From NCBI GenBank assembly GCA_963817435.1, contig CAWFNY010000003.1, positions 133,065 through 197,064 on the forward strand: 64,000 bases of DNA, given 5' to 3'. A program made the position numbers and the translations under genes. Of this stretch, positions 30,155 to 43,954 are shown piece by piece (the stretch's first letter is position 1; every line of letters begins with the position of its first letter). This stretch comes from an uncultured Gemmatimonadales bacterium (lineage in GTDB: Bacteria; Gemmatimonadota; Gemmatimonadetes; Gemmatimonadales; GWC2-71-9). The notes under the pieces are model-generated. The model did not search any database and was not told the DNA's origin. It worked only from the letters and a program-made list of their open reading frames with translations.

Positions 30155-30266
30155 TGGCTTCATCGAGTCCGAGCCGGGAAGGCTCGCGATGGCTGAGGTG
30201 ATCGAACGCCTCGCGCTTCCCGATCACACCGTATTCAATGGTCGCTCGCGCGACGGAGTACATCAG

Positions 30267-32435
30267 ATGAGAATGGCGCTGCTGATCGTCCTGCTGGGAA
30301 CGTTCGCCTGCAGCGGCGGGGGGAGTGGCGGGGCGGACGCCGCCAGGCTCCGCGAGCGCGCCCACGCCGTCACCATCACCCGCGACGACTGGGGCATCGC
30401 GCACGTCCACGGGAAGACCGACGCGGATGCGGTCTTCGGTATGGTCTACGCCCAGGCCGAGGACGACTTCAACCGCGTCGAGACCAACTACCTGAACTCC
30501 CTCGGCCGCCTCGCCGAAGCGGAGGGCGAATCGGCAGTGGTGCAGGATCTGCGGCAGAAGCTGTTTATGAATCCGGACACCCTGAAGGCGCAGTACGCTA
30601 CGAGTCCCGACTGGCTCAAACGGCTGCTGGACGCCTGGGCCGACGGGCTCAACTACTACCTGCTCACTCACCCCGGGGTGCATCCCCGCGCCATCACCCA
30701 TTTCGAGCCGTGGATGCCACTCTCGTACAGCGAGGGCAGCATCGGCGGAGACATCGAGAGCATCTCCATCGATCAGTTAGGCGCCTTCTACGGCCATGGA
30801 CCCAAGACCGTCGCGGTGCGGGCGCCCGCGCTGCCTGCGGAGCCTGGAGGGTCGAACGGCTTCGCCATCGCGCCGGCCAACACGTCGGCACATCACGCGC
30901 TGCTGCTCATCAATCCGCATACCTCGTTCTTCTTCCGCTCCGAGCTGCAGATGTCGAGCGACGAGGGACTCGACGCCTACGGCGCAGTCACCTGGGGGCA
31001 GTTCTTCATCTACCAGGGATTCAACCCCCGGGTAGGGTGGATGCACACCTCGAGCGGCGTCGACGCCATCGATGAGTGGGCCGAGACCATCGTGCGGAAG
31101 GGCGACAGCCTCTTCTACAAGGAAGGCGGCGCAGCGAAGCCGGTGACCGTCGAGAAGATCACCGTCCCGTTCCGGAGCGACAGCGGACCGCGACAGACGG
31201 TGTTCACCATCTACCGCACCGGACACGGGCCGGTCGTGCGTGAGGCCGACGGCAAGTGGATCACCATCCGGCTCATGCAGGAGCCGGTGAAGGCGCTCAC
31301 CGAGTCGTACACCCGCACCAAGGCGAACAACTACCAGGAGTTCCGGAGGACGGTCGAGCTGCAGTCCAACTCCTCCAACAACACCATCTACGCCGACGCC
31401 GACGGCAACATCGCCTACTTCCACGCCAGCTTCATCCCCAGGCGCGACCCGCGCTTCGACTGGAGTCACCCGGTGGACGGCAGTGATCCGGCGACGGAAT
31501 GGCAGGGGCTCACCCCCGTGGACCAGACACCCACGCTGTTCAACCCCGCCAACGGCTGGATCCAGAACACCAACAACTCGCCCTGGACCGCGGCCGGCCC
31601 CTACAGCCCGAAGCAGCGGGACTACCCGCGATATGTCGATGTCTACGAGGACAACCCGCGCGGCGTGCACGCGGTCCGGGTGCTGAGCGCCAGGAAGGAT
31701 TTCACGCTGCAGTCATTGATCGACGCGGCGTTCGACAGCTATCAGCCCGCCTTTGCGCTGCTGCTCCCGCCGCTCCTCCGGGACTACGACCGCCTCCCCG
31801 CACACGATCCGCTCAAGGCGAAGCTGGCCGGCCCCATCGAGGCGCTCCGGGGCTGGGACTATCGCTGGTCCGCGGCCTCGGTACCGACCTCCGTCGCGGT
31901 GTACTGGGGCGACATGCTCTGGCGCGATGTCGCGCAGAGCGCGGACGACGAGGATCTCTCCGTGTACGACTACATGACCCGCCGCGCCACGCCGGCACAG
32001 CGGCTGACTGCGCTCGCGGAAGCCACCGACAAGCTCACGACGGACTTCGGCACCTGGCAGACGGCCTGGGGCGAGATCAACCGCTTCCAGCGGCTCACCG
32101 ATGACATCGTCCATCCCTTCACCGATTCGGGACCCAGCATCCCGGTGCCGTTCACCTCGGCACGGTGGGGTTCGCTCGCCTCGTTCGGCGCCCGGTCGTA
32201 CAACGGCAGCAAGAAGATCTACGGCACCTACGGCAACAGCTTTGTGGCGGTGGTGGAGTTCGGCGACTCGGTACGCGCCCGCGCGGTGACCGCCGGTGGC
32301 GAGAGCGGCGACCCGAAGTCGCCGCACTTCAACGACCAGGCGGCCCGCTACGCCTCGGGGAATCTGCGGGAGGTCTACTTCTATCCCGGTCAGCTCGCGG
32401 CCCACACGGAACGGGCATACCATCCCGGGGAGTAG
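30267..32435 (+). CDS. penicillin/AHL acylase family Ntn-hydrolase (S45-like), lipoprotein
   Basis: The track ORF starts at 30189. ATG 30267 gives the lipobox MRMALLIVLLGTFAC. ITRDDWGIAHVHG... alpha-chain start. PGGSNGFAIAP carries the Ser-Asn autoprocessing/nucleophile site. About 720 aa. Confidence 0.8.
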   Translation: MRMALLIVLLGTFACSGGGSGGADAARLRERAHAVTITRDDWGIAHVHGKTDADAVFGMVYAQAEDDFNRVETNYLNSLGRLAEAEGESAVVQDLRQKLFMNPDTLKAQYATSPDWLKRLLDAWADGLNYYLLTHPGVHPRAITHFEPWMPLSYSEGSIGGDIESISIDQLGAFYGHGPKTVAVRAPALPAEPGGSNGFAIAPANTSAHHALLLINPHTSFFFRSELQMSSDEGLDAYGAVTWGQFFIYQGFNPRVGWMHTSSGVDAIDEWAETIVRKGDSLFYKEGGAAKPVTVEKITVPFRSDSGPRQTVFTIYRTGHGPVVREADGKWITIRLMQEPVKALTESYTRTKANNYQEFRRTVELQSNSSNNTIYADADGNIAYFHASFIPRRDPRFDWSHPVDGSDPATEWQGLTPVDQTPTLFNPANGWIQNTNNSPWTAAGPYSPKQRDYPRYVDVYEDNPRGVHAVRVLSARKDFTLQSLIDAAFDSYQPAFALLLPPLLRDYDRLPAHDPLKAKLAGPIEALRGWDYRWSAASVPTSVAVYWGDMLWRDVAQSADDEDLSVYDYMTRRATPAQRLTALAEATDKLTTDFGTWQTAWGEINRFQRLTDDIVHPFTDSGPSIPVPFTSARWGSLASFGARSYNGSKKIYGTYGNSFVAVVEFGDSVRARAVTAGGESGDPKSPHFNDQAARYASGNLREVYFYPGQLAAHTERAYHPGE

Positions 32436-32516: not shown

Positions 32517-35198
32517 GTGACGGACGCCATCGATCGCCTGACGTCCGCCCTCGCCGACCGTTACCGCCTCGAGCGGGAACTCGGCCAGGGCGGCATGGCG
32601 ACAGTCTACCTTGCGCAGGACCACAAGCACGACCGCCAGGTCGCGATCAAGGTGCTGCGCCCCGAACTCGCAGCCGTCATTGGCGCCGAGCGGTTCCTGC
32701 GCGAGATCAAGACCATCGCCAACCTGCAGCATCCCCACATCCTGGGCCTCATCGATTCCGGCGAGGTGCAGGGGACGGCGTATTACGTGATGCCGTTCGT
32801 CGAGGGGGAATCGCTCAGGGATCGCCTCACACGGGAAAAGCAGCTCCCTGTCACCGACGCGGTCCGGATCGCGACCGAAGTCGCCGGCGCGCTCGACTAC
32901 GCCCACCGCCACGGCGTGATCCATCGCGACATCAAGCCCGAGAACGTGCTGCTGCACGACGGCAGCGCGCTGGTCGCCGATTTCGGGATCGCGCTTGCGG
33001 TGAGCTCCGCCGGCGGGACGCGGATGACCGAGACCGGCATGAGCCTCGGCACGCCGCACTACATGTCGCCCGAACAGGCGATGGGCGAGCGGGAGATCAC
33101 CGCGCGGAGCGACATCTACGCCCTCGGCGCGATGACCTACGAGATGCTGGTGGGAGAGCCGCCGTTCACGGGGCCGACGGCCCAGGCCATTGTGGCCAAG
33201 GTGATGACCGAAAAGCCGGCCTCCATCAGGCGGGCCCGTGAGCGGGTGCCGGAACAGCTGGAGGATGCCGTATTCACGGCGCTGGAGAAGTTACCGGCCG
33301 ACCGGTTTCCCACCGCAGCCGCCTTTGCCGACGCCATGGCGGGCAATGCGACCGCGATTTCAGTCGGCCGGCGAGAGCGCACGGCGAGGCGCAGCCGCTC
33401 GCTTTCCTACCTCACGGCCTGGGGGGGCTGGGTAGTGGCGGCGCTCGGCATCGCGGCCGGGGTGTGGGGCTGGCTCCGGCAGGTTCCGCAGACTGCGGCG
33501 CAGTTCGCCATTGCATTCCCGCATGACCAGATGCTGGGACTGTCGATGCTGGGTACCCACGTGGCCGTCTCGCGGGACGGTTCGATGCTGGTGTACACCG
33601 GAGGCGACTCGGCCTACGGCCGCCTCTGGCTCAAGGCGCGCGACGCGCTGACGCCCATCCCCATTCCCGGCACCGAGGGCGCCTACGACCCGTTCATCTC
33701 TCCCGATGGCCGGCAAGTCGGCTTCATCACCGACCGGGACGGCCGCACCATGAAGGTGGTCACGCTCGCCGGCGGCCCGCCGCGGACCGTCGTCGGCGCT
33801 CCACTGGGCACCAGCGGGGCCTTCTGGGCCACGGATGGGTACATCTATTTCGATGCCGATATCGGCGGCCTGCAACGCGTCAAGCCGGACGGCAGTGCGC
33901 GCGAGACGGTGATGGCGCTCGATACGGCACAGCATGACGCCGGAATCGCGTGGCCTCAGGTATTGCCCGGCAACCAGGTGGCGATATTCCGGCTCCGGCG
34001 GGTCAACGACGCCCCTGGCGACTTCTCGATCGCGGCGTTGCGGATCGCCACGGGTGAGCGGAGCGTCGTGACTCGGGCCGTCAGCGCCGTGTATGCCTCG
34101 GGCCAGCTGCTCTTCGTGACCGTCGACGGCTCTCTGCAGGCCGCCCCATTCGATGAGCGGCGGCTGGCTCTCACCGGTCCGCCCGTGGCCGCGGCGAACG
34201 GCGTGCGCATCGCTGGTACCTACGCCGGTGTGGATTTCGCCGTCAGCAATGACGGGGCACTCTATTACGTCGCCGGTACCGCGGGCGCCGCGTCGAAGCT
34301 GGAGTGGGTGGAACGCGACGGCACCGCCCGGGCGGTGGACCCCGCCTGGCAGGAAGGCGGCGAAATCCGCGGCCTGGCGCTCTCGCCAGATGGGCGCCAG
34401 GCGGCGGTCGAGCTGTCGCGCGCCGGCTCGACCGGCACCGATATCTGGATCAAGCAGCTCCCCTCCGGCCCGCTCTCGCGGCTCACTCTCGACCCCGCAG
34501 CGGACGTCCGCCCAAGCTGGTCGGCGGACGGCCGCTCCGTTCTGTTCATTTCGGAGCGCGTGAGGCCGCAGGCAGTGTTCCGCCGGCAGGCCGACGGAGC
34601 TGGCGCAGACACCCTGGTTGTCCACGCCGAGCGAAACATCACGGAAGTCGGGGAGTCGCGGGACGGTCGCTGGCTGGTCGCCCGGACCTCGGGGGCGGAG
34701 ACCGGTGCCGGCGATATCCTGGCCATGCAGATGGGACGCGACACCGCCCTGCAGCCGCTGATCAGCACCCCGTCGTCCGAATCGAACCCGGTCCTTTCCC
34801 CGGATGGCCATTGGCTCGCCTACGTATCCGTCGCCTCCGGCCGGCGGGAGGTCTACGTGCGATCGTTCCCCGACGTGAACCGCGGTGTGTGGCAAGTCTC
34901 CACGGATGGGGGCGTGGAACCCCAGTGGGCGCACTCCGGGAAGGAGCTCTTCTTCCGCGGCATCAGCACGCTGGACATGATGGCCGTGGATGTGCAGACG
35001 ACTCCGGTGTTCCGTCCCGGAATGCCACGCGCGCTCTTCCACACCGACGCCGCGACCGGGCTGGACTATGTGCGTTATGCCGTCAGCCCGGACGACCGTC
35101 GCTTTCTCATGGTGGGGCGTGGCGGCGCCGATGCCCAGCCGCAACTTGTCCGGGTCGAGAACTTCATCCAGCACCTCGAGCGCCGGTCCGCACCGTGA
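32517..35198 (+). CDS. receptor Ser/Thr protein kinase K3 (kinase-TM-propeller), head subfamily B
   Basis: 893 aa with a GTG start. LGQGGMATVY, VAIKVL, HRDIKPEN, DFG, YMSPEQ. TM helix WGGWVVAALGIAAGVWGWL. SPDGRQVGF / SPDGHWLAY blades. Tail LVRVENFIQHLERR. Confidence 0.9.
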   Translation: MTDAIDRLTSALADRYRLERELGQGGMATVYLAQDHKHDRQVAIKVLRPELAAVIGAERFLREIKTIANLQHPHILGLIDSGEVQGTAYYVMPFVEGESLRDRLTREKQLPVTDAVRIATEVAGALDYAHRHGVIHRDIKPENVLLHDGSALVADFGIALAVSSAGGTRMTETGMSLGTPHYMSPEQAMGEREITARSDIYALGAMTYEMLVGEPPFTGPTAQAIVAKVMTEKPASIRRARERVPEQLEDAVFTALEKLPADRFPTAAAFADAMAGNATAISVGRRERTARRSRSLSYLTAWGGWVVAALGIAAGVWGWLRQVPQTAAQFAIAFPHDQMLGLSMLGTHVAVSRDGSMLVYTGGDSAYGRLWLKARDALTPIPIPGTEGAYDPFISPDGRQVGFITDRDGRTMKVVTLAGGPPRTVVGAPLGTSGAFWATDGYIYFDADIGGLQRVKPDGSARETVMALDTAQHDAGIAWPQVLPGNQVAIFRLRRVNDAPGDFSIAALRIATGERSVVTRAVSAVYASGQLLFVTVDGSLQAAPFDERRLALTGPPVAAANGVRIAGTYAGVDFAVSNDGALYYVAGTAGAASKLEWVERDGTARAVDPAWQEGGEIRGLALSPDGRQAAVELSRAGSTGTDIWIKQLPSGPLSRLTLDPAADVRPSWSADGRSVLFISERVRPQAVFRRQADGAGADTLVVHAERNITEVGESRDGRWLVARTSGAETGAGDILAMQMGRDTALQPLISTPSSESNPVLSPDGHWLAYVSVASGRREVYVRSFPDVNRGVWQVSTDGGVEPQWAHSGKELFFRGISTLDMMAVDVQTTPVFRPGMPRALFHTDAATGLDYVRYAVSPDDRRFLMVGRGGADAQPQLVRVENFIQHLERRSAP

Positions 35199-35208
35199 GG
35201 GCATCAGG

Positions 35209-37908
35209 ATGACCGACATGGCCCGCCTAGCGTCCGCTCTCGCCGACCGGTACCGCCTCGAGCGGGAGCTCGGTCAGGGCGGCATGGCGACAGTCTACCT
35301 CGCCCAGGACCTCAAGCACGACCGCAAGGTCGCGATCAAGGTGCTGCGGCCCGAACTCGCGGCGGTCATCGGCGCCGAGCGGTTCGTGGTCGAGATCAAG
35401 ACGACGGCCGCGCTGCAGCACCCCCACATCCTCCCCCTCTTCGACTCCGGCACCGCCGACGGCTTCCTCTACTATGTCATGCCGTTCATCGACGGCGAGA
35501 CCCTGCGCGCCAAGCTGGACCGCGAGACCCAGCTCGGCATCGAAGAGGCGGTCCGGATCACGGTTGCGGTGGCCGACGCCCTCGACTACGCGCACCGCCA
35601 CGGGGTGATCCACCGCGACATCAAGCCGGAGAACATCCTGCTGCACGACGGCCGGCCAGTCGTGGCGGACTTCGGGATCGCCCTGGCGCTCTCTGCCGCG
35701 GCGGGCGGGCGGATGACCGAGACGGGGATGAGTCTCGGCACCCCGCACTACATGAGCCCGGAGCAGGCGACGGCGGAGAAGGAGCTGACCGGCCGGAGCG
35801 ACATCTATTCCCTGGGCAGCGTGCTCTATGAGATGCTGACCGGCCAGCCACCGCACCTGGGGGGCTCGGCCCAGCAGATCATCATGAAGATCATCGCCGA
35901 GCCGGTGCAGCCGGTGACGGCCCTGCGGAAGGCGGTGACGCCGAACGTGGCGGCGGCGGTGGCCAAGGCGGTCGAGAAACTCCCCGCCGATCGGTTCGAG
36001 AGCGCGAAGGCCTTCGCCGAGGCATTGAGAGATCCCGGATTCACGATCGCGGGGACGGCCGGCGGCGCGCTGGCCCGCCCGGACGGCCGTTCGGCCCGCC
36101 TCGTCCCCGTCTTGAGCCTGCTGACGCTCGGCGCCCTGGCCCTCGCGGCTTGGGCGCTGTTCCGCCCCGCGCCCCCGAAGCAGGTCATCCGGTACAGCAT
36201 GGGGTTCCAGCCCGGCCAGGGAATGCGCCAGGGGGTCGCCGGGATCAACATCGCGATCTCCCCCGACGGCCGCTGGATCGTCTACCCGGGAGCCGGCACC
36301 ACCGCGAGCCAGCTCTACCTGCGCGCCCGCGACCGCCTCGACGCTACCCCGATCCCGGGGACCGAAGGCGCGACCAATCCCTTCTTCTCTCCCGACGGGA
36401 CCAAGATTGCCTTCTTCTCGGGGGCCAACTTCTCCCTCACTGTGGTGCCGGTCGCTGGCGGGCCGCCGATCCAGCTCGACAAGGGGGCGCCAGGGTCCGG
36501 GGGCGCCGGGGCCTGGGGCCCCGACGGCTGGATCTACTTCGACACGCCTAACGGGACGGCGCGGATCCGGGCCGAGGGCGGGACCGGGGAGCTATTGATC
36601 CCGTACGACAGCGCCACCCACGAGATCGGCTTCGCGTGGACCGACGCCCTGCCGAATGGGAAAGGCCTGGTCTTCCGGGCTCGCCGGAACCTCGATCCGA
36701 ACGATTTCGACATCGACGCGTACGACCTGCGAAAGCACACCCGGCACTTCCTCATGAAGGGGGTCATCGCGCGATACGCCGACCCGGGCTACCTGGTCAT
36801 CGTGCGCGCGGACGGCGCCGTGCTGGCGGCCCCCTTCGACCAGGACAAGCTCCGGCTCACCGGCCCTGCGGTCCCCCTCCTCTCGGGGGTGATGGTCAAG
36901 CCGCTCGGCTCCGCCGACTTCGCGATCTCCCGCAGCGGCACCCTGATGTACGTTCCGGGAACCGGGACCTCGTCCTCCGGCTACGCCGAGGTCGTCGAGG
37001 TGGACCGTCATGGACGGATCGCGCCCTTCACCCCGCCCTTCACCTTCAACCCCAGCTCGAATCACTCGCTCAGCCTCTCCCCGGACGGCCGGCGCGTGGC
37101 GCTCGATCAGCTCGGTACCGCCTCCCCCGACATCTGGGTCAAGACCCTCCCGCAGGGCGCCCTCTCCCGCCTCACCTTCGATTCCCTGGGGGCCGTCCGG
37201 CCGCAGTGGACCGCGGACGGGCGCGACATTCTCTACCTCGGCACGGGATCGGTCCAGGGGAGGAACGCCGTCTGGAGGCGCCGAGCCGACGGGAGCGCGC
37301 CCCCCGCGCGGGTCTGGGCCGATCCCCGCTGGAACATCCTCGCCTATTCGCTTTCGCGCGACGGGCAATGGCTCGTGTATCGCGTGACGTCCGCGAACAA
37401 CAACCGGGACATCTGGGCGATCCACCTCGGCCACGACACCGTCCCGGTGCCGCTCCTGACGTCGCCGAGCTTCGAGGATGCCCCGACGCTCTCGCCGGAC
37501 GGGCGGTGGCTCGCGTACGTCTCCGATGAGTCCTCGCGCAACGAGGTCTACGTCCGCCCCTTCCCCAATATCAACGACGGCCGGTGGCAGGTCTCCGTCG
37601 CGGGGGGCGAGGCCCCGCGCTGGTCGCGGGACGGCCGGTCGCTCTACTATCAGGACCTGAACGTCTCGATGTTCGAGGTCCGGGTGACCACCTCGCCCAC
37701 CTTCGTGAGCGGCACTCCCGTGAAACTGCTCGACAGTTCGATCGGGCTTGCGGCCTCGGTGGTCGTCCCGTATTACGACGAGTTGCCGGGGGGCCAGGGG
37801 TTCGTGGCGGCCCGCACCGCAAGCACGGGACCGGCGGCGGGCACGACCCAGCTGATCGTCGTGGACAATTGGGCGACCGAGCTCTTCGCCAGGATGAAGG
37901 GGCAGTAG
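35209..37908 (+). CDS. receptor Ser/Thr protein kinase K4 (kinase-TM-propeller), head subfamily C
   Basis: The track ORF 34990.. is over-extended. ATG 35209 gives MTDMARLASALADRYRLEREL. 899 aa with all kinase motifs. Tail LIVVDNWATELFARMKGQ. Confidence 0.9.
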   Translation: MTDMARLASALADRYRLERELGQGGMATVYLAQDLKHDRKVAIKVLRPELAAVIGAERFVVEIKTTAALQHPHILPLFDSGTADGFLYYVMPFIDGETLRAKLDRETQLGIEEAVRITVAVADALDYAHRHGVIHRDIKPENILLHDGRPVVADFGIALALSAAAGGRMTETGMSLGTPHYMSPEQATAEKELTGRSDIYSLGSVLYEMLTGQPPHLGGSAQQIIMKIIAEPVQPVTALRKAVTPNVAAAVAKAVEKLPADRFESAKAFAEALRDPGFTIAGTAGGALARPDGRSARLVPVLSLLTLGALALAAWALFRPAPPKQVIRYSMGFQPGQGMRQGVAGINIAISPDGRWIVYPGAGTTASQLYLRARDRLDATPIPGTEGATNPFFSPDGTKIAFFSGANFSLTVVPVAGGPPIQLDKGAPGSGGAGAWGPDGWIYFDTPNGTARIRAEGGTGELLIPYDSATHEIGFAWTDALPNGKGLVFRARRNLDPNDFDIDAYDLRKHTRHFLMKGVIARYADPGYLVIVRADGAVLAAPFDQDKLRLTGPAVPLLSGVMVKPLGSADFAISRSGTLMYVPGTGTSSSGYAEVVEVDRHGRIAPFTPPFTFNPSSNHSLSLSPDGRRVALDQLGTASPDIWVKTLPQGALSRLTFDSLGAVRPQWTADGRDILYLGTGSVQGRNAVWRRRADGSAPPARVWADPRWNILAYSLSRDGQWLVYRVTSANNNRDIWAIHLGHDTVPVPLLTSPSFEDAPTLSPDGRWLAYVSDESSRNEVYVRPFPNINDGRWQVSVAGGEAPRWSRDGRSLYYQDLNVSMFEVRVTTSPTFVSGTPVKLLDSSIGLAASVVVPYYDELPGGQGFVAARTASTGPAAGTTQLIVVDNWATELFARMKGQ

Positions 37909-40593
37909 ATGATGGACGACCGCCTCGCCGCCGCCCTCGCCGACCATTACCGCCTCGAGCGGGAGCTCGGCCAGGGCGGTATGGCGACAGTCTACCTCGC
38001 GCAGGACCTCAAGCACGACCGCCAGGTCGCGATCAAGGTGCTGCGCCCCGAGCTCGCGGCCGTCATCGGCGCCGAGCGGTTCCTGCGCGAGATCAAGACC
38101 ATCGCCACGCTGCAGCATCCTCACATCCTCGGTCTGATCGACAGCGGCGAGGTCAACGGCACCGCCTACTACGTCATGCCCTTCGTCGAGGGGGAATCGC
38201 TCAGAGATCGCCTCACACGGGAGAAGCAGCTCCCTGTCACCGACGCGGTCCGGATCGCGACCGAAGTCGCCGCCGCCCTCGACTACGCCCACCGCCACGG
38301 CGTGATTCATCGCGACATCAAGCCCGAGAACGTGCTGCTGCACGACGGCAGCGCGCTGGTCGCCGATTTCGGGATCGCGCTTGCAGTGAGCTCCGCCGGC
38401 GGGACGCGGATGACCGAGACCGGCATGAGCCTCGGTACGCCGCACTACATGTCGCCCGAACAGGCAATGGGCGAGCGGGAGATCACCGCGCGGAGCGACG
38501 TCTACGCCCTTGGCGCGATGACGTATGAGACACTCATCGGCGAGCCGCCATTCACGGGCCCCACGGCGCAGGCGATCATCGCCAAGGTGATGACCGGAGA
38601 GCCGGCACCACTCACGGCGCAGCGGAAGAGTGTCCCGGAAGCGGTCGAGAGCGCGGTGCTCACCGCGCTCGCCAAGCTGCCGGCCGACCGGTTCGGGAGC
38701 GCCGTGGAGTTCGCGGCGGCACTCCGGGGCGAGGGCACGCGCGCGACGACCGCGCGGCGGCCTGCCGCACCGGCCGCGAGCCCGATGGCGCTTCGCGTGG
38801 TCAGCGGCATCGCGGTGCTCGCCACGCTGGCCGCGCTGGCGCTCGCGGTCAAGCTGGCGCACCCGCCGGCCGGCCCGGTCACCCGGCTCACCCTCGACCT
38901 GCCCGATCTTCGGGTGAACCACAGCGGCTACTACGGAACCGCATTCGCCATCGCGCCGGACGGCTCCCGCATCGCGTTCATCAGCCGAACGGGTGGCGGC
39001 GGCGATGGACTGGGCGGGATCACCCATCTCATGGTGCGCGACCGCGGGGATGTGCAGCCGCGCCTTCTGGATGGGACCGATGGCGCCGATGGGCCGTTCT
39101 TCTCGCCCGATGGGCAGTGGATCGCCTACCTCGCCAACGGCAAGGTGTTCAAGATCGCGGCCGCGGGCGGCGGGCCGCCAGCACAGGTGGCGGAGGGCGC
39201 CAACCCCATCCTCGCCGGCGGGACATGGCTCGACGATGGACGGATCGTCTTCAGCAGTCCCAGCTTCAATCTGCTCGCGGTGCCGTCGTCCGGAGGACCA
39301 GTCACGACGATCGTGCCGGCACCGGAGAACGGCGGGATGATCTTTCCGACCGCACTGCCACGAAAGGATGTCCTGCTGGTCACTCGCTGCGGCAACAACT
39401 GCGCGCAGCAGGTCCTCATGGCGGTCAACCTGAAGACGCAGGCGCTGGACACCATTCTCCGCGGCGCATCGCGCGGGTTCTACCTGCCGACGGGCGATCT
39501 GATCGCGGTCCTGCAGGACGGCAGTGTGGTGGGCGCGCCGTTCGACGTCGGCGCCCTGCGATTCAAGCGCCCCCCAGCCGTGCTGCTCAGCGGGGTGCAG
39601 AGCGAACTCACGATCATCCCCGAATTCGCCGTCGCGGACGATGGCACGATGGTCTATCTCCCCTCCAGCCTCACCGCGGGGCGGGCCACACCGGCCGAGG
39701 TGGACCGGAACGGGAAGAGCCGGATCCTCGATCCCGCCTGGCTGGGCCGGTTCAACAGCATGACGCTCTCACCGGACGGACGCCGCGTGGCGGTGGGCAT
39801 GGGCGAGGGGACTGGGGGCATGCTGTGGGTGAAGCAACTCGACGCCGGTCCGCTTACGCGAATCACCTTCGATGGGACGATCAACTATCGCGGGGCCTGG
39901 ATGGCCGATGGACGCACCCTGAGCTACAGCTCGGACAGGCAAGGCCCCGCCACCTACCTGTACCGGGTCCGCGACGACGGCAGCGACAAGCCGGAACGGC
40001 TCTTCCCCACAGATACCTCGCAGATTGACGAGGCGGTCTGGTCTCAGGACGGCCAGTGGGTGGTGTACCGTACCGGCACCGTCGCCGGGGTGCGCGACCT
40101 CTACGCTCGGCGGCTCCACGGCGACACGGCCCGGGTCACCATCGCCGCCGGGCCAGCCGACGAGTACATGCCCGCGCTCTCGCCGGATGGAAAATGGATC
40201 GCCTATGTGTCGCTCGAGTCGGGGCGGGAAGAGATCTACGTCCGCCCCTTTCCCGACGTCACGCGGGCCAGGTGGCAGGTTTCGCCGGCGGGGGGGACGA
40301 GTCCGGTCTGGGCGCATTCCGGGCGTGAGCTCTTCTACCTCGCGCCGGGAGACAGCCTGGTCTCCGCCAGCGTCACCGGCACCCCGGATTTCCAGGTGTC
40401 GGACCGCCACGCGCTCTTCAAGACGCTGCCCTTCGTCTTCCAGCCGTGGCACCAGGCTTTCGGGGTCCGCCCCGGAGACCGGAGCTTCGTGATGCTGCAG
40501 CGGTCTTCGTCGCAGGGGCCCGAGACCCGCCGGCTGACGGTGGTGCTCAACTGGTTCACCGAGGTGAACGCCAGGCTGGGGGCAGCGGAATGA
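37909..40593 (+). CDS. receptor Ser/Thr protein kinase K5 (kinase-TM-propeller), head subfamily B
   Basis: 894 aa. The ATG directly abuts the K4 TAG. All kinase motifs present. Tail LTVVLNWFTEVNARLG. Confidence 0.9.
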   Translation: MMDDRLAAALADHYRLERELGQGGMATVYLAQDLKHDRQVAIKVLRPELAAVIGAERFLREIKTIATLQHPHILGLIDSGEVNGTAYYVMPFVEGESLRDRLTREKQLPVTDAVRIATEVAAALDYAHRHGVIHRDIKPENVLLHDGSALVADFGIALAVSSAGGTRMTETGMSLGTPHYMSPEQAMGEREITARSDVYALGAMTYETLIGEPPFTGPTAQAIIAKVMTGEPAPLTAQRKSVPEAVESAVLTALAKLPADRFGSAVEFAAALRGEGTRATTARRPAAPAASPMALRVVSGIAVLATLAALALAVKLAHPPAGPVTRLTLDLPDLRVNHSGYYGTAFAIAPDGSRIAFISRTGGGGDGLGGITHLMVRDRGDVQPRLLDGTDGADGPFFSPDGQWIAYLANGKVFKIAAAGGGPPAQVAEGANPILAGGTWLDDGRIVFSSPSFNLLAVPSSGGPVTTIVPAPENGGMIFPTALPRKDVLLVTRCGNNCAQQVLMAVNLKTQALDTILRGASRGFYLPTGDLIAVLQDGSVVGAPFDVGALRFKRPPAVLLSGVQSELTIIPEFAVADDGTMVYLPSSLTAGRATPAEVDRNGKSRILDPAWLGRFNSMTLSPDGRRVAVGMGEGTGGMLWVKQLDAGPLTRITFDGTINYRGAWMADGRTLSYSSDRQGPATYLYRVRDDGSDKPERLFPTDTSQIDEAVWSQDGQWVVYRTGTVAGVRDLYARRLHGDTARVTIAAGPADEYMPALSPDGKWIAYVSLESGREEIYVRPFPDVTRARWQVSPAGGTSPVWAHSGRELFYLAPGDSLVSASVTGTPDFQVSDRHALFKTLPFVFQPWHQAFGVRPGDRSFVMLQRSSSQGPETRRLTVVLNWFTEVNARLGAAE

Positions 40594-41999
40594 ACCCCCG
40601 CCTCACGAGCGCCCTCGCCGACCGGTACCGCCTCGAGCGCGAGTTAGGCGCCGGGGGAATGGCCACCGTGTATCTCGCCGAGGACCTGAAGCACCAGCGC
40701 CGGGTCGCGGTGAAGGTGCTGCGCCCAGAGCTGGCGGCCACGCTCGGACCCGAGCGCTTCGCCCGGGAGATCGCCGTGGCCGCGCGGCTGCAGCACCCCC
40801 ACATCCTCGGCCTGCTCGACTCGGGCGACGCCGACGGCTTCTTCTACTACGTGATGCCCTACGTGGAGGGAGAGACCCTCCGCGAACGCCTGGCGCGGGC
40901 CGGCGAGCTGCCGGTGCCGGAGACGGTGCGGCTGCTGGGCGAGATCGCCGAGGCCCTGGCCGTGGCGCACAAGGCGGGCGTGGTGCACCGCGACATCAAG
41001 CCGGAGAACATCCTCCTCTCCGGGCGCCACGCGCTGGTCATGGACTTCGGCGTGGCCAAGGCGGTCACCGAGGCCTCGGGCCGGCAGCAGCTCACCACCG
41101 CCGGTGTCGCGTTAGGCACCCCGGCCTACATGGCGCCGGAGCAGGCCTCGGCCGACCCGCAGATGGATGGCCGGGTGGATATCTACGCCCTCGGCGTGCT
41201 GGGCTACGAGATGCTCACCGGCCATCCCCCCTTCCACGGCCTCACGCCGCAGCAGACCCTCGCGGCGCACGTGACCCAGACGCCGATCGCCGTGGGGCAG
41301 CAGCGCGCCGGCCTCTCGCTGGCGCTCGAGGCGGTGGTCATGAAGTGCCTGGCCAAGCGTCCGGCCGATCGCTTCCAGTCGGCCGAGGAACTGGCGGTGC
41401 TGCTGGAACCCCTGGGCACGCCGAGCGGCGGGATGACCCCGACGCATACCCAACCGCATTCGGCCGTGGCGGCGGTGGCCGACCGGAAGCGGCCCGCGTG
41501 GTTGATGTGGGGCGGCGTGGCAGCGGTGCTTCTCGTGGTCGGCGGGGCGCTGGGCTGGAAGCTCACCCATGCCGGCGCAGGGAGTGGCAGGATCCAGCGC
41601 ATCGGGGTCCTCCCGATCGAGGACATCTCGGGCAAGGACGCCGAGTTCGTCGTGGCGATGCACGACGCCCTCACCAATGCGCTGGCGCAGCAGGGCGTGG
41701 TGGGCGTGGCGCCGCGCTCCACGATGGTGCGCTACAAGGACAGCCCCAAGACGGTGAAGGAGATCGCGGCGGCGGAGGGCCTCGATGCCGTGGTGGAAAC
41801 GACGGTCTTCCGCGCGGGGGACGTGATGCGAATCAACGTGCAGTTCAGCGACCCCATCACCACGCGGAGCCTCTGGGCCAGCACCTACAGCCCGAACGTG
41901 AACGACGTGCTCAAGGCGCAGAGCGCCGTCGTCGAACAGATCAAGGCCGGCATCGACAGCGTGCTCGGCGGCAAGCGAACCACTGGAGCGCAATCATGA
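40590..41999 (+). CDS. Ser/Thr protein kinase K6 (kinase-TM-short periplasmic module, no propeller), head subfamily E
   Basis: ATG 40590 overlaps the K5 TGA (ATGA). 469 aa. LGAGGMATVY, VAVKVL, HRDIKPEN, MDFGVAKAV, YMAPEQ. TM helix then IGVLPIEDISGKDAEFVVAMHDALTNAL... (about 110 aa). Confidence 0.85.
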   Translation: MNPRLTSALADRYRLERELGAGGMATVYLAEDLKHQRRVAVKVLRPELAATLGPERFAREIAVAARLQHPHILGLLDSGDADGFFYYVMPYVEGETLRERLARAGELPVPETVRLLGEIAEALAVAHKAGVVHRDIKPENILLSGRHALVMDFGVAKAVTEASGRQQLTTAGVALGTPAYMAPEQASADPQMDGRVDIYALGVLGYEMLTGHPPFHGLTPQQTLAAHVTQTPIAVGQQRAGLSLALEAVVMKCLAKRPADRFQSAEELAVLLEPLGTPSGGMTPTHTQPHSAVAAVADRKRPAWLMWGGVAAVLLVVGGALGWKLTHAGAGSGRIQRIGVLPIEDISGKDAEFVVAMHDALTNALAQQGVVGVAPRSTMVRYKDSPKTVKEIAAAEGLDAVVETTVFRAGDVMRINVQFSDPITTRSLWASTYSPNVNDVLKAQSAVVEQIKAGIDSVLGGKRTTGAQS

Positions 42000-43954
42000 A
42001 GCACGCAGTCGTCGTCGCGGGCATCGGCCTCCTTGCCGCCTGCAGCCCAGGCAAGACGGGCAATCCTGCCCTGCCGCCGGTCACCATGGTCTCCCCCGAC
42101 AGCGCCAATGACGTCACGGCCCGCTTCTCCCCCGACGGCACGCGCCTCTTCTGGTGGCAGCCCGCCGGGGGGACGAATCAGCTGTGGACCGCCGGTGCCG
42201 ATCACAGCAACCCGACCAGCGTTCCGGTCACCTCGATCGCCGACAACCCGGTCCTCTGGTCACCGGACCGATCGCAGATCGCGGTGCCCTCGAGCAACGC
42301 AGGGTTGCTGCAGGTGGCGGTCATTTCAGCCGGCGGCGGAGCGCCGAAACAACTGAGTAATGTGGCGGGGGTCGCCATCCCGATCAGCTGGCACCCTGAT
42401 GGCGACCGTGTTGGCTACATCGCCACGAGCGCGGGGGCTGGTGGCGGCACCTTTCGGTCGTTCGTTACCTCGGTGAGCCACGGCGGCAGCTTGCCCCTCA
42501 TTCCCGACGAACAGCGCCCGAACATCGGCGAGTGGTCGCCCGACGGGTCCCGTATCGGCTACTTGGTCATCGGAGGGGGGCGCGTCACGATCTGGGTGGC
42601 CGACAGCACCGGGCACCATCCACGCCAACTGACCACCGATGGCTTCGAGAATTTCGCCGAGTACGAATCGGCCTGGTCGCCGGATGGGAAGGAACTGCTC
42701 TACGAGTCGCGACGCACAGGCACCAGCGACGTCTGGGTGGTCCCGGTGGACAGCGGGGCGCCCCGCCAGCTTACGCGCGACATCCGGAACGACTGGACGC
42801 CGCGCTGGTCCCCCGACGGCAAATGGGTGGCGTTCCTCTCGGACCGGGGGAAGCAGACTGACGTCTGGGTCGTGCCCGCGGCCGGAGGGCGGGAGATCAG
42901 GGTGACGGACGACGTGGACGTGGAAGACCTGATGCAATGGCTCTCCGGCAGCCGACTGGCCTACCTCACCGGTCGGGGGCAGAGCGGCATTTGGGCGCTG
43001 TCGCTCGGCGACAGTTCCGAGCGACGCCTGACGCCGGATTCCCTCCGCGCAGCAAGCCCGCGGCTCTCGCCGGATGGCACGCAGGTCGCCTTCAACGTGG
43101 ATCGGGGCGGTGGGGTGAACGACATCGCGCTCGTGCCCCTGGCGGGCGGTCCCATGCGGACGCTGGTACAGGGCGGCAACAACTCCGAAGTGTCCTGGTC
43201 CCCGGACGGGGCGCGCCTCGTCTTCTCGTCGGATCGGGGCGGCAGCCAGGACATCTGGGTGGTCGATGTCGCCGGCGGTGAGCCACGCCAGCTCACGAAT
43301 TGGCCCGGCGGCGAACGCAGTCCCCGTTGGAATGTCGACGGCTCCGCGGTCTGGTTCGTGTCCGACCGCGACGCACGGGTCAGCGATCTCTGGCTGGTGC
43401 CTGTGGCCGGCGGCGAGCCGGTCCGCGTGACGCACGCGGGGATGGTCAACAACCTCGCCACGGCTCGCGGCCGCCCGGAGCTCTTCGCTTCGGTCCTCGG
43501 CACGACCGGACAATACGAAGTCGTGCAGGTGAAGCCGGACGGAGCGCTGGTACCCATCTGGCAGCGCAGCAACGCCTTTCCAAACGACATATTCCCGGAC
43601 GGAGACTCCCTGGTCATTGCCGAGGGTGGCAAGGGAGGACAATGGCAGTTCCGGATCCTCCCCGTGACCGGCCGAGGGGAGGGACAGATTGTGAACGATC
43701 CCGGCACGGTCTTCACCGGCAACTCGGAGGATTGGAGCCTGGTGGTCTACCAGATTCCGAACGGGGCGGTGCACAACCTCGGGCTGCGCAACCGCAAGGA
43801 CGGGACGACCCGGCGGCTGACGACGTCTTCCTTCGACGAAGGCTGGGTCAATTTCACGCCTGACAACCGAACGATGGTGTTCCAGCGGTCACGGTCGGTC
43901 CGCCGCATCGCCATCGCCGACCTGAGCAAGCTGCTGGCGGGGACGGTGAAGTGA
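41996..43954 (+). CDS. TolB/PD40-like multi-blade beta-propeller lipoprotein (detached sensor module)
   Basis: The track ORF 41345.. is over-extended. ATG 41996 overlaps the K6 TGA. Lipobox MKHAVVVAGIGLLAAC. 652 aa. Many FSPDG/WSPDG blades followed by D(V/I)WVVP strands. Confidence 0.85.
   Translation: MKHAVVVAGIGLLAACSPGKTGNPALPPVTMVSPDSANDVTARFSPDGTRLFWWQPAGGTNQLWTAGADHSNPTSVPVTSIADNPVLWSPDRSQIAVPSSNAGLLQVAVISAGGGAPKQLSNVAGVAIPISWHPDGDRVGYIATSAGAGGGTFRSFVTSVSHGGSLPLIPDEQRPNIGEWSPDGSRIGYLVIGGGRVTIWVADSTGHHPRQLTTDGFENFAEYESAWSPDGKELLYESRRTGTSDVWVVPVDSGAPRQLTRDIRNDWTPRWSPDGKWVAFLSDRGKQTDVWVVPAAGGREIRVTDDVDVEDLMQWLSGSRLAYLTGRGQSGIWALSLGDSSERRLTPDSLRAASPRLSPDGTQVAFNVDRGGGVNDIALVPLAGGPMRTLVQGGNNSEVSWSPDGARLVFSSDRGGSQDIWVVDVAGGEPRQLTNWPGGERSPRWNVDGSAVWFVSDRDARVSDLWLVPVAGGEPVRVTHAGMVNNLATARGRPELFASVLGTTGQYEVVQVKPDGALVPIWQRSNAFPNDIFPDGDSLVIAEGGKGGQWQFRILPVTGRGEGQIVNDPGTVFTGNSEDWSLVVYQIPNGAVHNLGLRNRKDGTTRRLTTSSFDEGWVNFTPDNRTMVFQRSRSVRRIAIADLSKLLAGTVK

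What the first reader, a model, noticed from the sequence alone, without database searches (positions are those of the whole stretch)
32801..38522. K3 and K5 share a 336-nt near-identical kinase tract while their sensor domains are unrelated by eye (gene-conversion signature)
Seen: my hand alignment of 32801-33136 (K3) against 38187-38522 (K5) gives 10 mismatches in 336 nt. The shared stretch includes identical unusual synonymous choices such as cctgtcacc, gatttcggg and gcgcttgc. The roughly 240 nt upstream are about 90 percent identical. In the 85 nt downstream mismatches jump to roughly one in four. Past the TM helix I could not align the two proteins beyond generic SPDG blades. K4 lies between the two copies. 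Inference: either recent gene conversion homogenised the heads, or a conserved head has been recombined onto different sensor modules.
Basis: partly seen in the sequence, partly recalled or inferred. Interest (0 to 1): 0.75.

Follow-up and report, generated by a model that had tools for sequence, protein, structure and literature searches.

The report
Gene conversion between neighbouring kinase genes
Two neighbouring receptor-kinase genes in an uncultured soil-type bacterium (Gemmatimonadales) have recently copied parts of their kinase-coding DNA from one to the other; this is a clear but ordinary case of gene conversion within a 13-gene kinase array.

Summary
32801-33136 vs 38187-38522 has 10 mismatches in 336 nt. 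The 240 nt upstream are 89.6% identical and the 85 nt downstream 77.6%.

One point is wrong: the sensor tails are not unrelated. They align at 35% identity over 567 aa (E=1e-82).

K3 and K5 are two of 13 tandem Hanks-type Ser/Thr kinase genes with beta-propeller sensor tails.

Synonymous sites in the K3/K5 kinase domain form a mosaic:
- Tract 1, 32545-32720: 95.5% identity, dS about 0.21.
- Patch, 32721-32795: saturated, although the protein is nearly identical.
- Tract 2, 32796-33136: 97% identity, dS 0.09.
- Downstream: saturated again (dS 0.9-1.8).

A GENECONV-type test on third positions gives p<=1e-6 (8e-5 after correction for 78 pairs).

A K5 ortholog in a related MAG (L006) flips the tree. 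K3 and K5 group together inside the tracts. K5 and its ortholog group together everywhere else (Fisher p=1.6e-13).

So this is recent, homology-limited gene conversion, probably K5 to K3. Similar tracts occur between other heads in this window and in independent MAG assemblies.

It is a known mechanism seen in a new gene family. Interest is moderate to low.

The parts
32517..35198 (+). K3: Hanks-type Ser/Thr kinase (aa 16-264), hydrophobic segment near aa 297-318, beta-propeller tail. Probable recipient of the conversion.
   Evidence: ORF list. Pfam Pkinase E=1.6e-50 and PD40 E=1.4e-20. Nearest solved relative is M. tuberculosis PknB, E=4e-54.
35209..37908 (+). K4: a paralogous kinase with a propeller tail lying between the two copies. 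Its head is of another class (K4/K8) and takes no part in the long tracts.
   Evidence: start ATG at 35209. Head is 72-73% nt identical to K3 and K5.
37909..40593 (+). K5: paralogous kinase with a propeller tail. Probable donor.
   Evidence: Pfam. Orthologs in L006, L045 and L043 have tails 95/85/83% and heads 97/94/93% aa identical to K5.
32545..32720 (+). Tract 1 in K3 (partner in K5: 37931-38106). 168/176 identical. Encodes the Gly-rich loop, the VAIK lysine and helix C.
   Evidence: Segment A (codons 0-66) has dS 0.21. Site patterns for that segment: 20 K3=K5 against 7 K5=ortholog.
32721..32795 (+). Unconverted or later overwritten patch (partner 38107-38181). 57/75 identical. Codons 67-87 have 14 synonymous differences in 21 codons, although the protein is nearly identical.
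   Evidence: NG86 dS is undefined because the sites are saturated. Site patterns 2|6|9.
32796..33136 (+). 331/341 identical. Encodes the hinge, catalytic loop HRDIKPEN, DFG, activation loop, P+1/SPE and subdomain IX.
   Evidence: dS 0.09. 93 of 100 polymorphic third positions match, permutation p<=1e-6. The 3' breakpoint lies between 33119 and 33137.
38182..38522 (+). Tract 2 in K5, the partner of 32796-33136.
33137..33330 (+). The rest of the K3 kinase domain, not converted (partner 38523-38716). 68.6% identical, dS 0.9-1.8. Here each gene resembles its own orthologs.
   Evidence: K3 orthologs such as P0012 share the motif TEKPAS..R.RERVP.
33387..35195 (+). K3 sensor tail (linker, hydrophobic segment, PD40/Tricorn-like beta-propellers). 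An old homolog of the K5 tail at 38779-40590.
   Evidence: BLASTP 35% identity over 567 aa, E=1e-82. dN 0.75, dS 1.18. Longest exact in-register nt match between any two tails is 18 nt or less.
38779..40590 (+). K5 sensor tail.
   Evidence: 95% aa identical to the L006 ortholog.

Best explanation
K3 and K5 are old sister paralogs in a 13-gene tandem array. Each gene encodes a receptor-type Ser/Thr kinase: a cytoplasmic Hanks kinase head, one membrane segment and an extracytoplasmic beta-propeller sensor. Their kinase heads have stayed almost identical in protein sequence under purifying selection, while synonymous sites saturated.

Recently, non-reciprocal homologous recombination (ectopic gene conversion) copied about 0.6 kb of kinase-coding DNA from one gene into the other. 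This happened after the lineage split from the one represented by MAG locus L006. The direction was most probably K5 to K3.

The result is two near-identical tracts, 32545-32720 and 32796-33136. The 75-nt patch between them either escaped conversion through patchy heteroduplex repair or was overwritten later.

The tracts end where sequence identity runs out. Only the heads hold exact matches long enough to start recombination, so the sensors are never homogenised.

Shown here: the mosaic, its statistical significance, the tree flip against an ortholog, and the recurrence of the pattern elsewhere.
Inferred: the enzymology (RecA-type strand exchange), the direction, and whether there was one event or two.

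Consequence: two different sensors now drive an almost identical catalytic core (2 aa differences in 109 residues).
For: 1. Synonymous mosaic. The fraction of identical codons among identical amino acids is 0.90-0.97 in the tracts. It is 0.54-0.59 in the patch and downstream, although the protein is 90-100% identical there.
2. NG86 dS is 0.21, saturated, 0.09, 0.89 and 1.77 for segments A to E, and 1.18 for the tail.
3. Clustering of synonymous differences within the pair: permutation p=6e-4.
4. GENECONV-type test on polymorphic third positions: 0 of 1e6 permutations reach the observed fragment, 8e-5 after correction for 78 pairs. The fragment spans alignment codon columns 89-198.
5. Three-taxon site patterns with the K5 ortholog of L006, written as K3=K5 | K5=ortholog | K3=ortholog:
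- tract 1 (segment A): 20|7|6
- tract 2 (segment C): 22|3|4
- segment D: 0|14|4
- segment E: 2|33|3
- tail: 45|827|41
Fisher p=1.6e-13 for segment C against D+E.
6. Direction. Over segment C (codons 88-196) K3-K5o is 91.7% and K5-K5o is 91.4%, close to the ortholog level of D+E (93%). A K3-to-K5 transfer would leave K5-K5o at paralog level, about 80%. The K5-type head is stably linked to K5 tails in other genomes.
7. The differences inside the tracts look young: 15 transitions to 3 transversions. Outside the tracts the ratio is 14 to 26, mostly G/C swaps at third positions (Fisher p=0.0014).
8. Substrate. Every pair of heads shares an exact in-register match of 14-77 nt. Tails share 18 nt or less.
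9. Generality. K6-K11 is significant in this window (corrected p=0.009) and K10-K11 borderline. Orthologous K5, K7 and K9 heads are mosaics against L006 while the tails are 95-97% identical. Independent assemblies show similar intragenomic tracts in L023, L045 and L033. The L033 tract is 210 nt with 2 mismatches and carries a shared 9-aa insertion.
Against: - No K3 ortholog closer than 75% (tail) exists in the databases searched. The direction therefore rests on one ortholog, on one side.
- The patch between the tracts has no identifiable donor in the window. One event cannot be told from two.
- The window comes from an assembly whose reads I cannot see. An artefact from collapsing or polishing repeats cannot be formally excluded.
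- Tract 1 lies in the part of the head that is most conserved among all paralogs (K4 and K8 are 88-90% identical there). Taken alone it is weaker evidence than tract 2.
Confidence: 0.85

Rival explanations
1. A simple old duplication. The kinase head is kept similar only by purifying selection and by strong codon bias in a 69% GC genome. No recombination took place.
For: All 13 heads are very conserved (64-88% nt). Codon bias alone gives about 60% identical codons among identical residues.
Against: Selection on the protein cannot produce a tenfold or greater change in dS within one domain. The patch and the downstream flank encode nearly identical protein yet are saturated. The third-position permutation test gives p<=1e-6. 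K3 and K5 are closer to each other than K5 is to its ortholog, and only inside the tracts.
Confidence: 0.02
2. Module shuffling. A single crossover or unequal exchange joined a ready-made K5-type head to the K3 sensor (or the reverse), creating a chimeric gene. No internal conversion tract is involved.
For: Across genomes, orthologous tails carry different head classes. K4-type tails carry K8-, K13- or K10-type heads. Of the K3-type tails examined, 7 carry K4/K8-type heads. So whole-head replacement does happen in this family.
Against: Similarity begins only inside the gene. The 5' flanks are 20% identical and the first codons differ. Similarity ends inside the kinase domain at 33119-33137, about 65 codons before the domain border. 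Beyond that point each gene resembles its own orthologs. An unconverted patch interrupts the similarity. A single crossover between direct repeats 5.4 kb apart would also have deleted K4, which is present.
Confidence: 0.06
3. Assembly or polishing artefact. Reads from one paralog were mapped onto the other, homogenising the consensus within a repeat.
For: The source is apparently a metagenome-type contig of 747 kb. All relatives found are MAGs. Repeats of 0.8 kb at 75-90% identity are places where polishing can go wrong. I could not see reads.
Against: The tracts still differ at 18 sites, with a transition-rich spectrum typical of young real divergence. Both genes keep intact frames. Tract 2 sits at an ortholog-like distance from L006 K5. 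Similar mosaics appear in several independent assemblies from other projects.
Confidence: 0.05
4. Both K3 and K5 were converted by a third paralog located elsewhere in the genome and not seen here.
For: The genome probably holds many more such kinases. K5 vs its ortholog is unexpectedly diverged in the first ~90 codons (81-86% nt), so K5 or its ortholog has also received foreign head sequence.
Against: Over segment C (codons 88-196) K5 is 91.4% identical to its ortholog, close to the ortholog baseline. K5 therefore looks native there. No paralog in the window exceeds 82% in tract 2. Two parallel events are less parsimonious than one.
Confidence: 0.05

Closest known systems
Ectopic (interlocus) gene conversion and concerted evolution of bacterial paralogs. 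Examples: rRNA operons, tuf genes, and mycobacterial PE/PPE and ESX-related families.
   Same: Non-reciprocal copying between dispersed or tandem paralogs. Paralogs are more alike than orthologs within the tracts. Tracts run to a few hundred bp, bounded by loss of homology. Prokaryote-wide surveys and Mycobacterium tuberculosis studies describe this (PMC6053082, PMC13061034, PMC12046097, PMC8022953; found, and only the abstract of PMC6053082 was read).
   Different: Here only part of one domain is homogenised, while the rest of the gene diverges freely. The family is a receptor Ser/Thr kinase array in uncultured Gemmatimonadales. My two literature searches found no description of that.
Receptor-type Hanks kinases of bacteria. 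M. tuberculosis PknB is the closest solved kinase domain. PknD is the classic kinase + TM + beta-propeller architecture (PknD is recalled from my own knowledge and was not tested).
   Same: Pkinase domain with VAIK, HRD and DFG motifs. PknB is the best PDB match (E=4e-54). Architecture is an N-terminal kinase, a hydrophobic segment near residue 300, and a C-terminal beta-propeller.
   Different: The sensors here are PD40 / Tricorn_N / Tricorn_2nd type double propellers of about 570 aa, not NHL or PASTA. The genes sit in a 13-member, partly translationally coupled array.
Eukaryotic receptor-gene clusters in which conversion and unequal exchange act domain by domain, such as plant NLR and RLK clusters (from my own knowledge).
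   Same: A tandem array of receptors with a conserved signalling module and fast-diverging recognition modules. Sequence exchange is limited to the conserved part.
   Different: Those clusters are usually discussed as generating diversity in the recognition domain. Here the exchange homogenises the output domain. No adaptive role is shown.

Membership tests
Ectopic gene conversion / concerted evolution | Within a tract, paralogs of one genome are more similar to each other than either is to its ortholog in a related genome | tested here: met
   Segment C (tract 2, codons 88-196): K3-K5 318/327, K5-K5o 299/327. Site patterns 22|3|4 in segment C against 2|47 in segments D+E, Fisher p=1.6e-13.
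Ectopic gene conversion / concerted evolution | A significant fragment of shared polymorphic, silent sites (GENECONV-type test), with non-uniform dS | tested here: met
   Third positions only: 93/100 match, p<=1e-6, 8e-5 after correction for 78 pairs. dS 0.09 against 0.9-1.8. This was my own implementation, not the GENECONV or RDP programs.
Ectopic gene conversion / concerted evolution | Non-reciprocal: donor and recipient are both kept, with no deletion or duplication of the interval | tested here: met
   K3, K4 and K5 are all intact ORFs in their original order. The flanks on both sides of the tracts are gene-specific.
Ectopic gene conversion / concerted evolution | Dependence on the homologous-recombination machinery (RecA and a minimal exact-match length) | not testable with these tools
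   Indirect only. Heads share exact matches of 14-77 nt and tails 18 nt or less.
Ectopic gene conversion / concerted evolution | The tracts are present in the real DNA molecules and are not an assembly artefact | not testable with these tools
   No reads are available. Indirect support comes from the mutation spectrum and from recurrence in other assemblies.
Hanks-type (eukaryotic-like) Ser/Thr protein kinase, Pfam PF00069 | Pkinase profile match above the curated cut-off | tested here: met
   K3 172 bits, K4 157 bits, K5 166 bits, against a cut-off of 31.7.
Hanks-type (eukaryotic-like) Ser/Thr protein kinase, Pfam PF00069 | Catalytic motifs: Gly-rich loop, VAIK lysine, HRD...N and DFG | tested here: met
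   GQGGMATV, VAIKVL, HRDIKPEN and DFG are read directly in the K3 and K5 translations.
Receptor-type bacterial STK with an extracytoplasmic beta-propeller sensor (PknD-like architecture) | A single transmembrane segment between the kinase and the sensor | tested here: inconclusive
   A Kyte-Doolittle 19-residue window exceeds 1.6 at aa 296-320 in K4 and peaks at aa 297-315 in K5. The K3 segment (LTAWGGWVVAALGIAAGVWGWL) is Gly/Trp-rich and stays below 1.6. No dedicated TM predictor was run.
Receptor-type bacterial STK with an extracytoplasmic beta-propeller sensor (PknD-like architecture) | C-terminal beta-propeller repeats | tested here: met
   PD40 repeats with E=1e-20 to 1e-26. Precomputed Tricorn_N and Tricorn_2nd hits. 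No structure was predicted.

The most novel reading that the evidence does not exclude
The conserved kinase heads may serve as recombination handles for the whole array. On this reading, exchange through the heads does more than homogenise output domains. It also lets sensor cassettes be swapped, replaced or reassorted within and between strains, so the locus behaves as a fast-evolving receptor repertoire comparable to plant resistance-gene clusters.

Hints in favour:
- Orthologous tails carry different head classes in different genomes.
- Against L006, the K5, K7 and K9 genes are 87-91% nt identical while the genes interleaved with them are replaced by non-orthologous kinases.
- Ortholog heads diverge faster at silent sites than their tails.
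Probability: 0.2. Interest if true: 0.6.

Novelty: new member of a known kind. Interest (0 to 1): 0.35.

Why it matters
Gene conversion between bacterial paralogs is well known, so the mechanism is not new.

What this case adds:
- It is a clean, statistically solid example in a large receptor-kinase array of an uncultured phylum.
- It shows exchange confined to part of one domain.

Practical consequences:
- Trees built from the kinase domains of these families will mislead about orthology. Heads and tails have different histories.
- Two different sensors (K3 and K5, 35% identical) now feed an almost identical catalytic core, which predicts shared substrates.
- Assemblies and annotation pipelines should treat these arrays with care.

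If the wider reading holds (heads as handles for swapping sensors), it would describe how bacteria diversify a sensory repertoire.

Tried and rejected
- Exact-protein look-up of K5 found nothing on record. The window's own contig is not retrievable.
- The single genome-contig scan used the K4 tail as query. It gave 42 Gemmatimonadota loci, but only L006 is close. L006 holds no K3 ortholog within the 21.8 kb fetched.
- A protein search with the K3 tail found nothing closer than 75%. A two-sided test of direction, with orthologs of both genes, was therefore impossible.
- An exact 29-mer from tract 2 has no match in metagenome contigs. No sister strain was found.
- My first attempt to list intragenomic tracts, BLASTN with a 93% identity filter, returned nothing because the HSPs extend into diverged flanks. 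I replaced it with a maximal-segment scan.
- A first comparison with the L006 ortholog was three codons out of register and was redone.
- I looked for a donor of the 75-nt patch among the 13 heads. None is better than 77%.
- K4-K8 heads look similar (84% nt), but the fragment test is not significant (p=0.74). That pair fits plain old paralogy.
- I considered selection on an RNA structure or on an antisense ORF as a cause of silent-site conservation. I did not pursue it, because the ortholog comparison already shows that the tract sequence is not conserved between genomes (91% against 97%).
- Two literature searches failed on syntax and were repeated.
Full report
CONTEXT

The window is 65-72% GC. 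Between 23.5 and 63.2 kb it carries 13 plus-strand genes for Hanks-type Ser/Thr kinases, which I call K1 to K13. Most have the same layout:
- a Pkinase head of about 265 aa;
- a variable linker with a hydrophobic segment near residue 300;
- a tail of about 570 aa with PD40 repeats, also hit by the Tricorn_N and Tricorn_2nd profiles.

K2 has a tail without a propeller. K6 has a short tail.

The closest solved kinase domain is M. tuberculosis PknB (E=4e-54). All relatives found are MAGs of Gemmatimonadales/Gemmatimonadota. The window's own contig could not be retrieved by an exact-protein look-up; in the protein collection K3 and K5 are listed on a 747,282-bp contig.

THE OBSERVATION

It is correct to the base.
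- 32801-33136 vs 38187-38522 has 10 mismatches in 336 nt, in the same reading frame.
- The preceding 240 nt are 89.6% identical. The following 85 nt are 77.6% identical.
CCT is 4% of Pro codons and CTT 3% of Leu codons. At those columns only K3 and K5 use them.
- In the same columns no other paralog exceeds 82% identity to K3 or K5.

One statement fails. The sensors are not unrelated. They align end to end at 35% identity (E=1e-82). That is about the same as K3 vs K4, K8 or K13 (37-40%).

ANATOMY OF THE SIMILARITY

A codon-by-codon map and a sliding window show a mosaic, not a plateau. I count codons from 32532.

| Codons | Differences |
|---|---|
| 0-66 | 8 synonymous, 5 replacement |
| 67-87 | 14 synonymous in 21 codons, protein almost identical |
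| 88-196 | 7 synonymous, 2 replacement in 109 codons |
| 197 onward | dense again, protein still 83-90% identical for 30 more codons |

NG86 dS for the five head segments is 0.21, saturated, 0.09, 0.89 and 1.77. For the tails it is 1.18. Head dS among the other paralogs is about 0.4-1.0.

In window coordinates:
- tract 1 is 32545-32720 (95.5% identical);
- the patch is 32721-32795 (76%);
- tract 2 is 32796-33136 (97.1%).

The 5' flanks of the two genes are unrelated (20% identity).

STATISTICS

- Within the pair, synonymous differences are clustered (maximal-segment permutation p=6e-4).
- I ran a GENECONV-style test on all 13 heads. It uses polymorphic third positions only and permutes the order of sites.
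  - K3-K5: 0 of 1e6 permutations reach the observed fragment (93 of 100 sites match; alignment codon columns 89-198). That is 8e-5 after multiplying by 78 pairs.
  - K6-K11: p=1.1e-4 (0.009 corrected).
  - K10-K11: 1e-3.
  - K9-K10: 3e-3.
  - K4-K8: not significant.
- This is my own implementation, not the published program.

ORTHOLOG TEST

Locus L006 comes from MAG MFD05942.bin.1.100. It carries orthologs of K5, K7 and K9, with tails 95, 91 and 97% aa identical.

I counted three-taxon site patterns for K3, K5 and the L006 K5 ortholog (K5o). Counts are K3=K5 | K5=K5o | K3=K5o.

| Region | Counts |
|---|---|
| Tract 1 (segment A) | 20 / 7 / 6 |
| Patch (segment B) | 2 / 6 / 9 |
| Tract 2 (segment C) | 22 / 3 / 4 |
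| Next 32 codons (segment D) | 0 / 14 / 4 |
| Following 34 codons (segment E) | 2 / 33 / 3 |
| Linker plus tail | 45 / 827 / 41 |

The tree flips twice. Segment C against the downstream flank gives Fisher p=1.6e-13, and the best 3' breakpoint lies between 33119 and 33137. This is the classical signature of concerted evolution. It dates the event to after the split from the L006 lineage. K3-K5 divergence in segment C is about one third of K5-K5o divergence (9 against 28 differences in 327 nt).

DIRECTION

Over segment C (codons 88-196) K3 is as far from K5o (91.7%) as K5 is (91.4%). Both values are close to the ortholog baseline just downstream (93%). This is what a K5-to-K3 transfer predicts. 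A K3-to-K5 transfer would leave K5 at paralog distance, about 80%, from its ortholog.

K5-type heads are stably attached to K5-type tails in L006, L045, L043 and many database proteins. I rate K5 to K3 at about 0.6, because no close K3 ortholog exists (best tail identity 75%).

THE PATCH

Both genes carry private changes here, and K5 has 9 of them in 63 nt. No head in the window is a good donor (77% at most). The patch may have escaped conversion through patchy mismatch repair of the heteroduplex. Tracts 1 and 2 may be separate events (dS 0.21 against 0.09). Or K5 was later overwritten from a paralog outside the window. This stays open.

AGE SIGNAL IN THE DIFFERENCES

Inside the tracts the differences are 15 transitions to 3 transversions, and several create rare A/T-ending codons. 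Outside the tracts the ratio is 14 to 26, mostly G/C swaps between preferred codons (Fisher p=0.0014). That fits young mutations in the tracts and saturated sites elsewhere. It also argues against a consensus artefact.

WHY ONLY THE HEAD

Every pair of heads shares an exact in-register match of 14-77 nt (77 nt for K3-K5). No pair of tails shares more than 18 nt. From general knowledge, RecA-dependent exchange needs roughly 20-30 nt of perfect identity. So only the heads offer a substrate. This step is inference.

GENERALITY

- Ortholog pairs between the window and L006 have tails 95-97% nt identical. The first 100-200 codons of their heads are only 75-89% identical, with nearly unchanged protein. 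So heads are repeatedly rewritten from paralogs.
- Intragenomic head tracts of the same kind occur in independent assemblies:
  - L023: 772 nt at 93%.
  - L045: 558 nt at 93%.
  - L033: 210 nt with 2 mismatches.
- In L033 the tract links a propeller-tailed kinase to the ortholog of K2, whose tail is unrelated. It carries a 9-aa insertion that window K2 lacks.
- Orthologs of one tail type carry different head classes in different genomes:
  - K4-type tails carry K8-, K13- or K10-type heads.
  - K3-type tails carry K3/K5-type, 'PLHDSGEVNGTVFY'-type or K4/K8-type heads.
  - Some K5-type tails carry K10-type heads.
It is not what happened between K3 and K5.

RIVALS

- Pure selection plus codon bias is excluded by the silent-site mosaic and by the ortholog test.
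- A single-crossover chimera is unlikely. Both ends of the similarity lie inside the kinase domain, a patch interrupts it, and K4 is still present.
- An assembly or polishing artefact cannot be excluded without reads. It is made unlikely by the 18 remaining differences with a natural spectrum, by the ortholog-level distance of tract 2 to L006, and by recurrence in other assemblies.
- A hidden third donor for both genes is possible but less parsimonious.

COMPARISON WITH WHAT IS KNOWN

Gene conversion among bacterial paralogs is established. It has been described for rRNA operons, for a set of long-lasting concertedly evolving genes, and for mycobacterial antigen families (papers found; abstract of PMC6053082 read). 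My searches found nothing on kinase arrays of Gemmatimonadota.

I therefore file this as a new member of a known kind. The mechanism is textbook. The family, and the restriction of exchange to part of a domain, are the new details.

VERDICT

- The gene-conversion interpretation is supported (confidence 0.85).
- Interest is moderate to low (0.35).
- The most novel reading still open is that the heads act as recombination handles that reshuffle a sensor repertoire (probability about 0.2).

Noticed in passing
window 23506-63174: There are 13 tandem plus-strand Ser/Thr kinase genes in 40 kb. Several junctions suggest translational coupling. K4/K5 abut (TAGATG at 37906-37911). K5/K6, K6/lipoprotein, K10/K11 and K11/K12 overlap by ATGA.
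   Followed up: partly
window 40590-43954: K6 has a kinase head, a membrane segment and only a short tail. It is followed by a separate gene, coupled by an ATGA overlap (start 41996). That gene encodes a PD40 beta-propeller protein with a lipoprotein-like signal (MKHAVVVAGIGLLAAC). It looks like a split version of the kinase-plus-sensor architecture.
   Followed up: partly
window 52664-52736 vs 55210-55282: K10 and K11 belong to different head classes (66% nt overall). Yet they share 73 nt with one mismatch at the 5' end, including the unusual DRYLLERE motif. This is probably another short conversion tract (third-position test p=1e-3, not significant after correction).
   Followed up: partly
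window 40596-41996 vs 55199-57811; 50017-52644 vs 52653-55184: K6-K11 (fragment over alignment codon columns 111-223, corrected p=0.009) and K9-K10 (533 nt with 41 mismatches) also show extended head similarity. K4-K8 (84% nt) does not pass the fragment test.
   Followed up: partly
L006 3800-21780 vs window 35000-55200: Array turnover between related genomes. K5, K7 and K9 have 87-91% nt collinear counterparts in L006. The genes interleaved with them (K4, K6 plus lipoprotein, K8, K10) are replaced there by non-orthologous kinases. The K4-like gene of L006 sits after K5, not before it.
   Followed up: partly
L033 9035-11707 and 14352-17285: A 210-nt tract with 2 mismatches links a propeller-tailed kinase to the K2 ortholog, whose tail has no propeller. 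The tract carries a 9-aa insertion (GRSDGQEGS / GRSDSQEGS) in the N-lobe that window K2 lacks. This is a very clean conversion between genes with unrelated tails.
   Followed up: yes
window 43992-46610 vs L006 12037-14656: In the K7 ortholog pair the juxtamembrane linker (codons ~263-303) is only 58-63% nt identical, while both flanks are 95-99% identical. The first 120 codons of the head are 75-86% identical. The linker is either hypervariable or has been replaced.
   Followed up: no
window 30189-32435: A penicillin amidase family gene (Pfam E=9e-125) interrupts the kinase array between K2 and K3.
   Followed up: no
window 33360-35219 (-), 36592-39027 (-) and others: Long antisense ORFs of 600-800 aa overlap the kinase genes. 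In a genome of about 69% GC these are expected by chance, and I did not treat them as genes.
   Followed up: no
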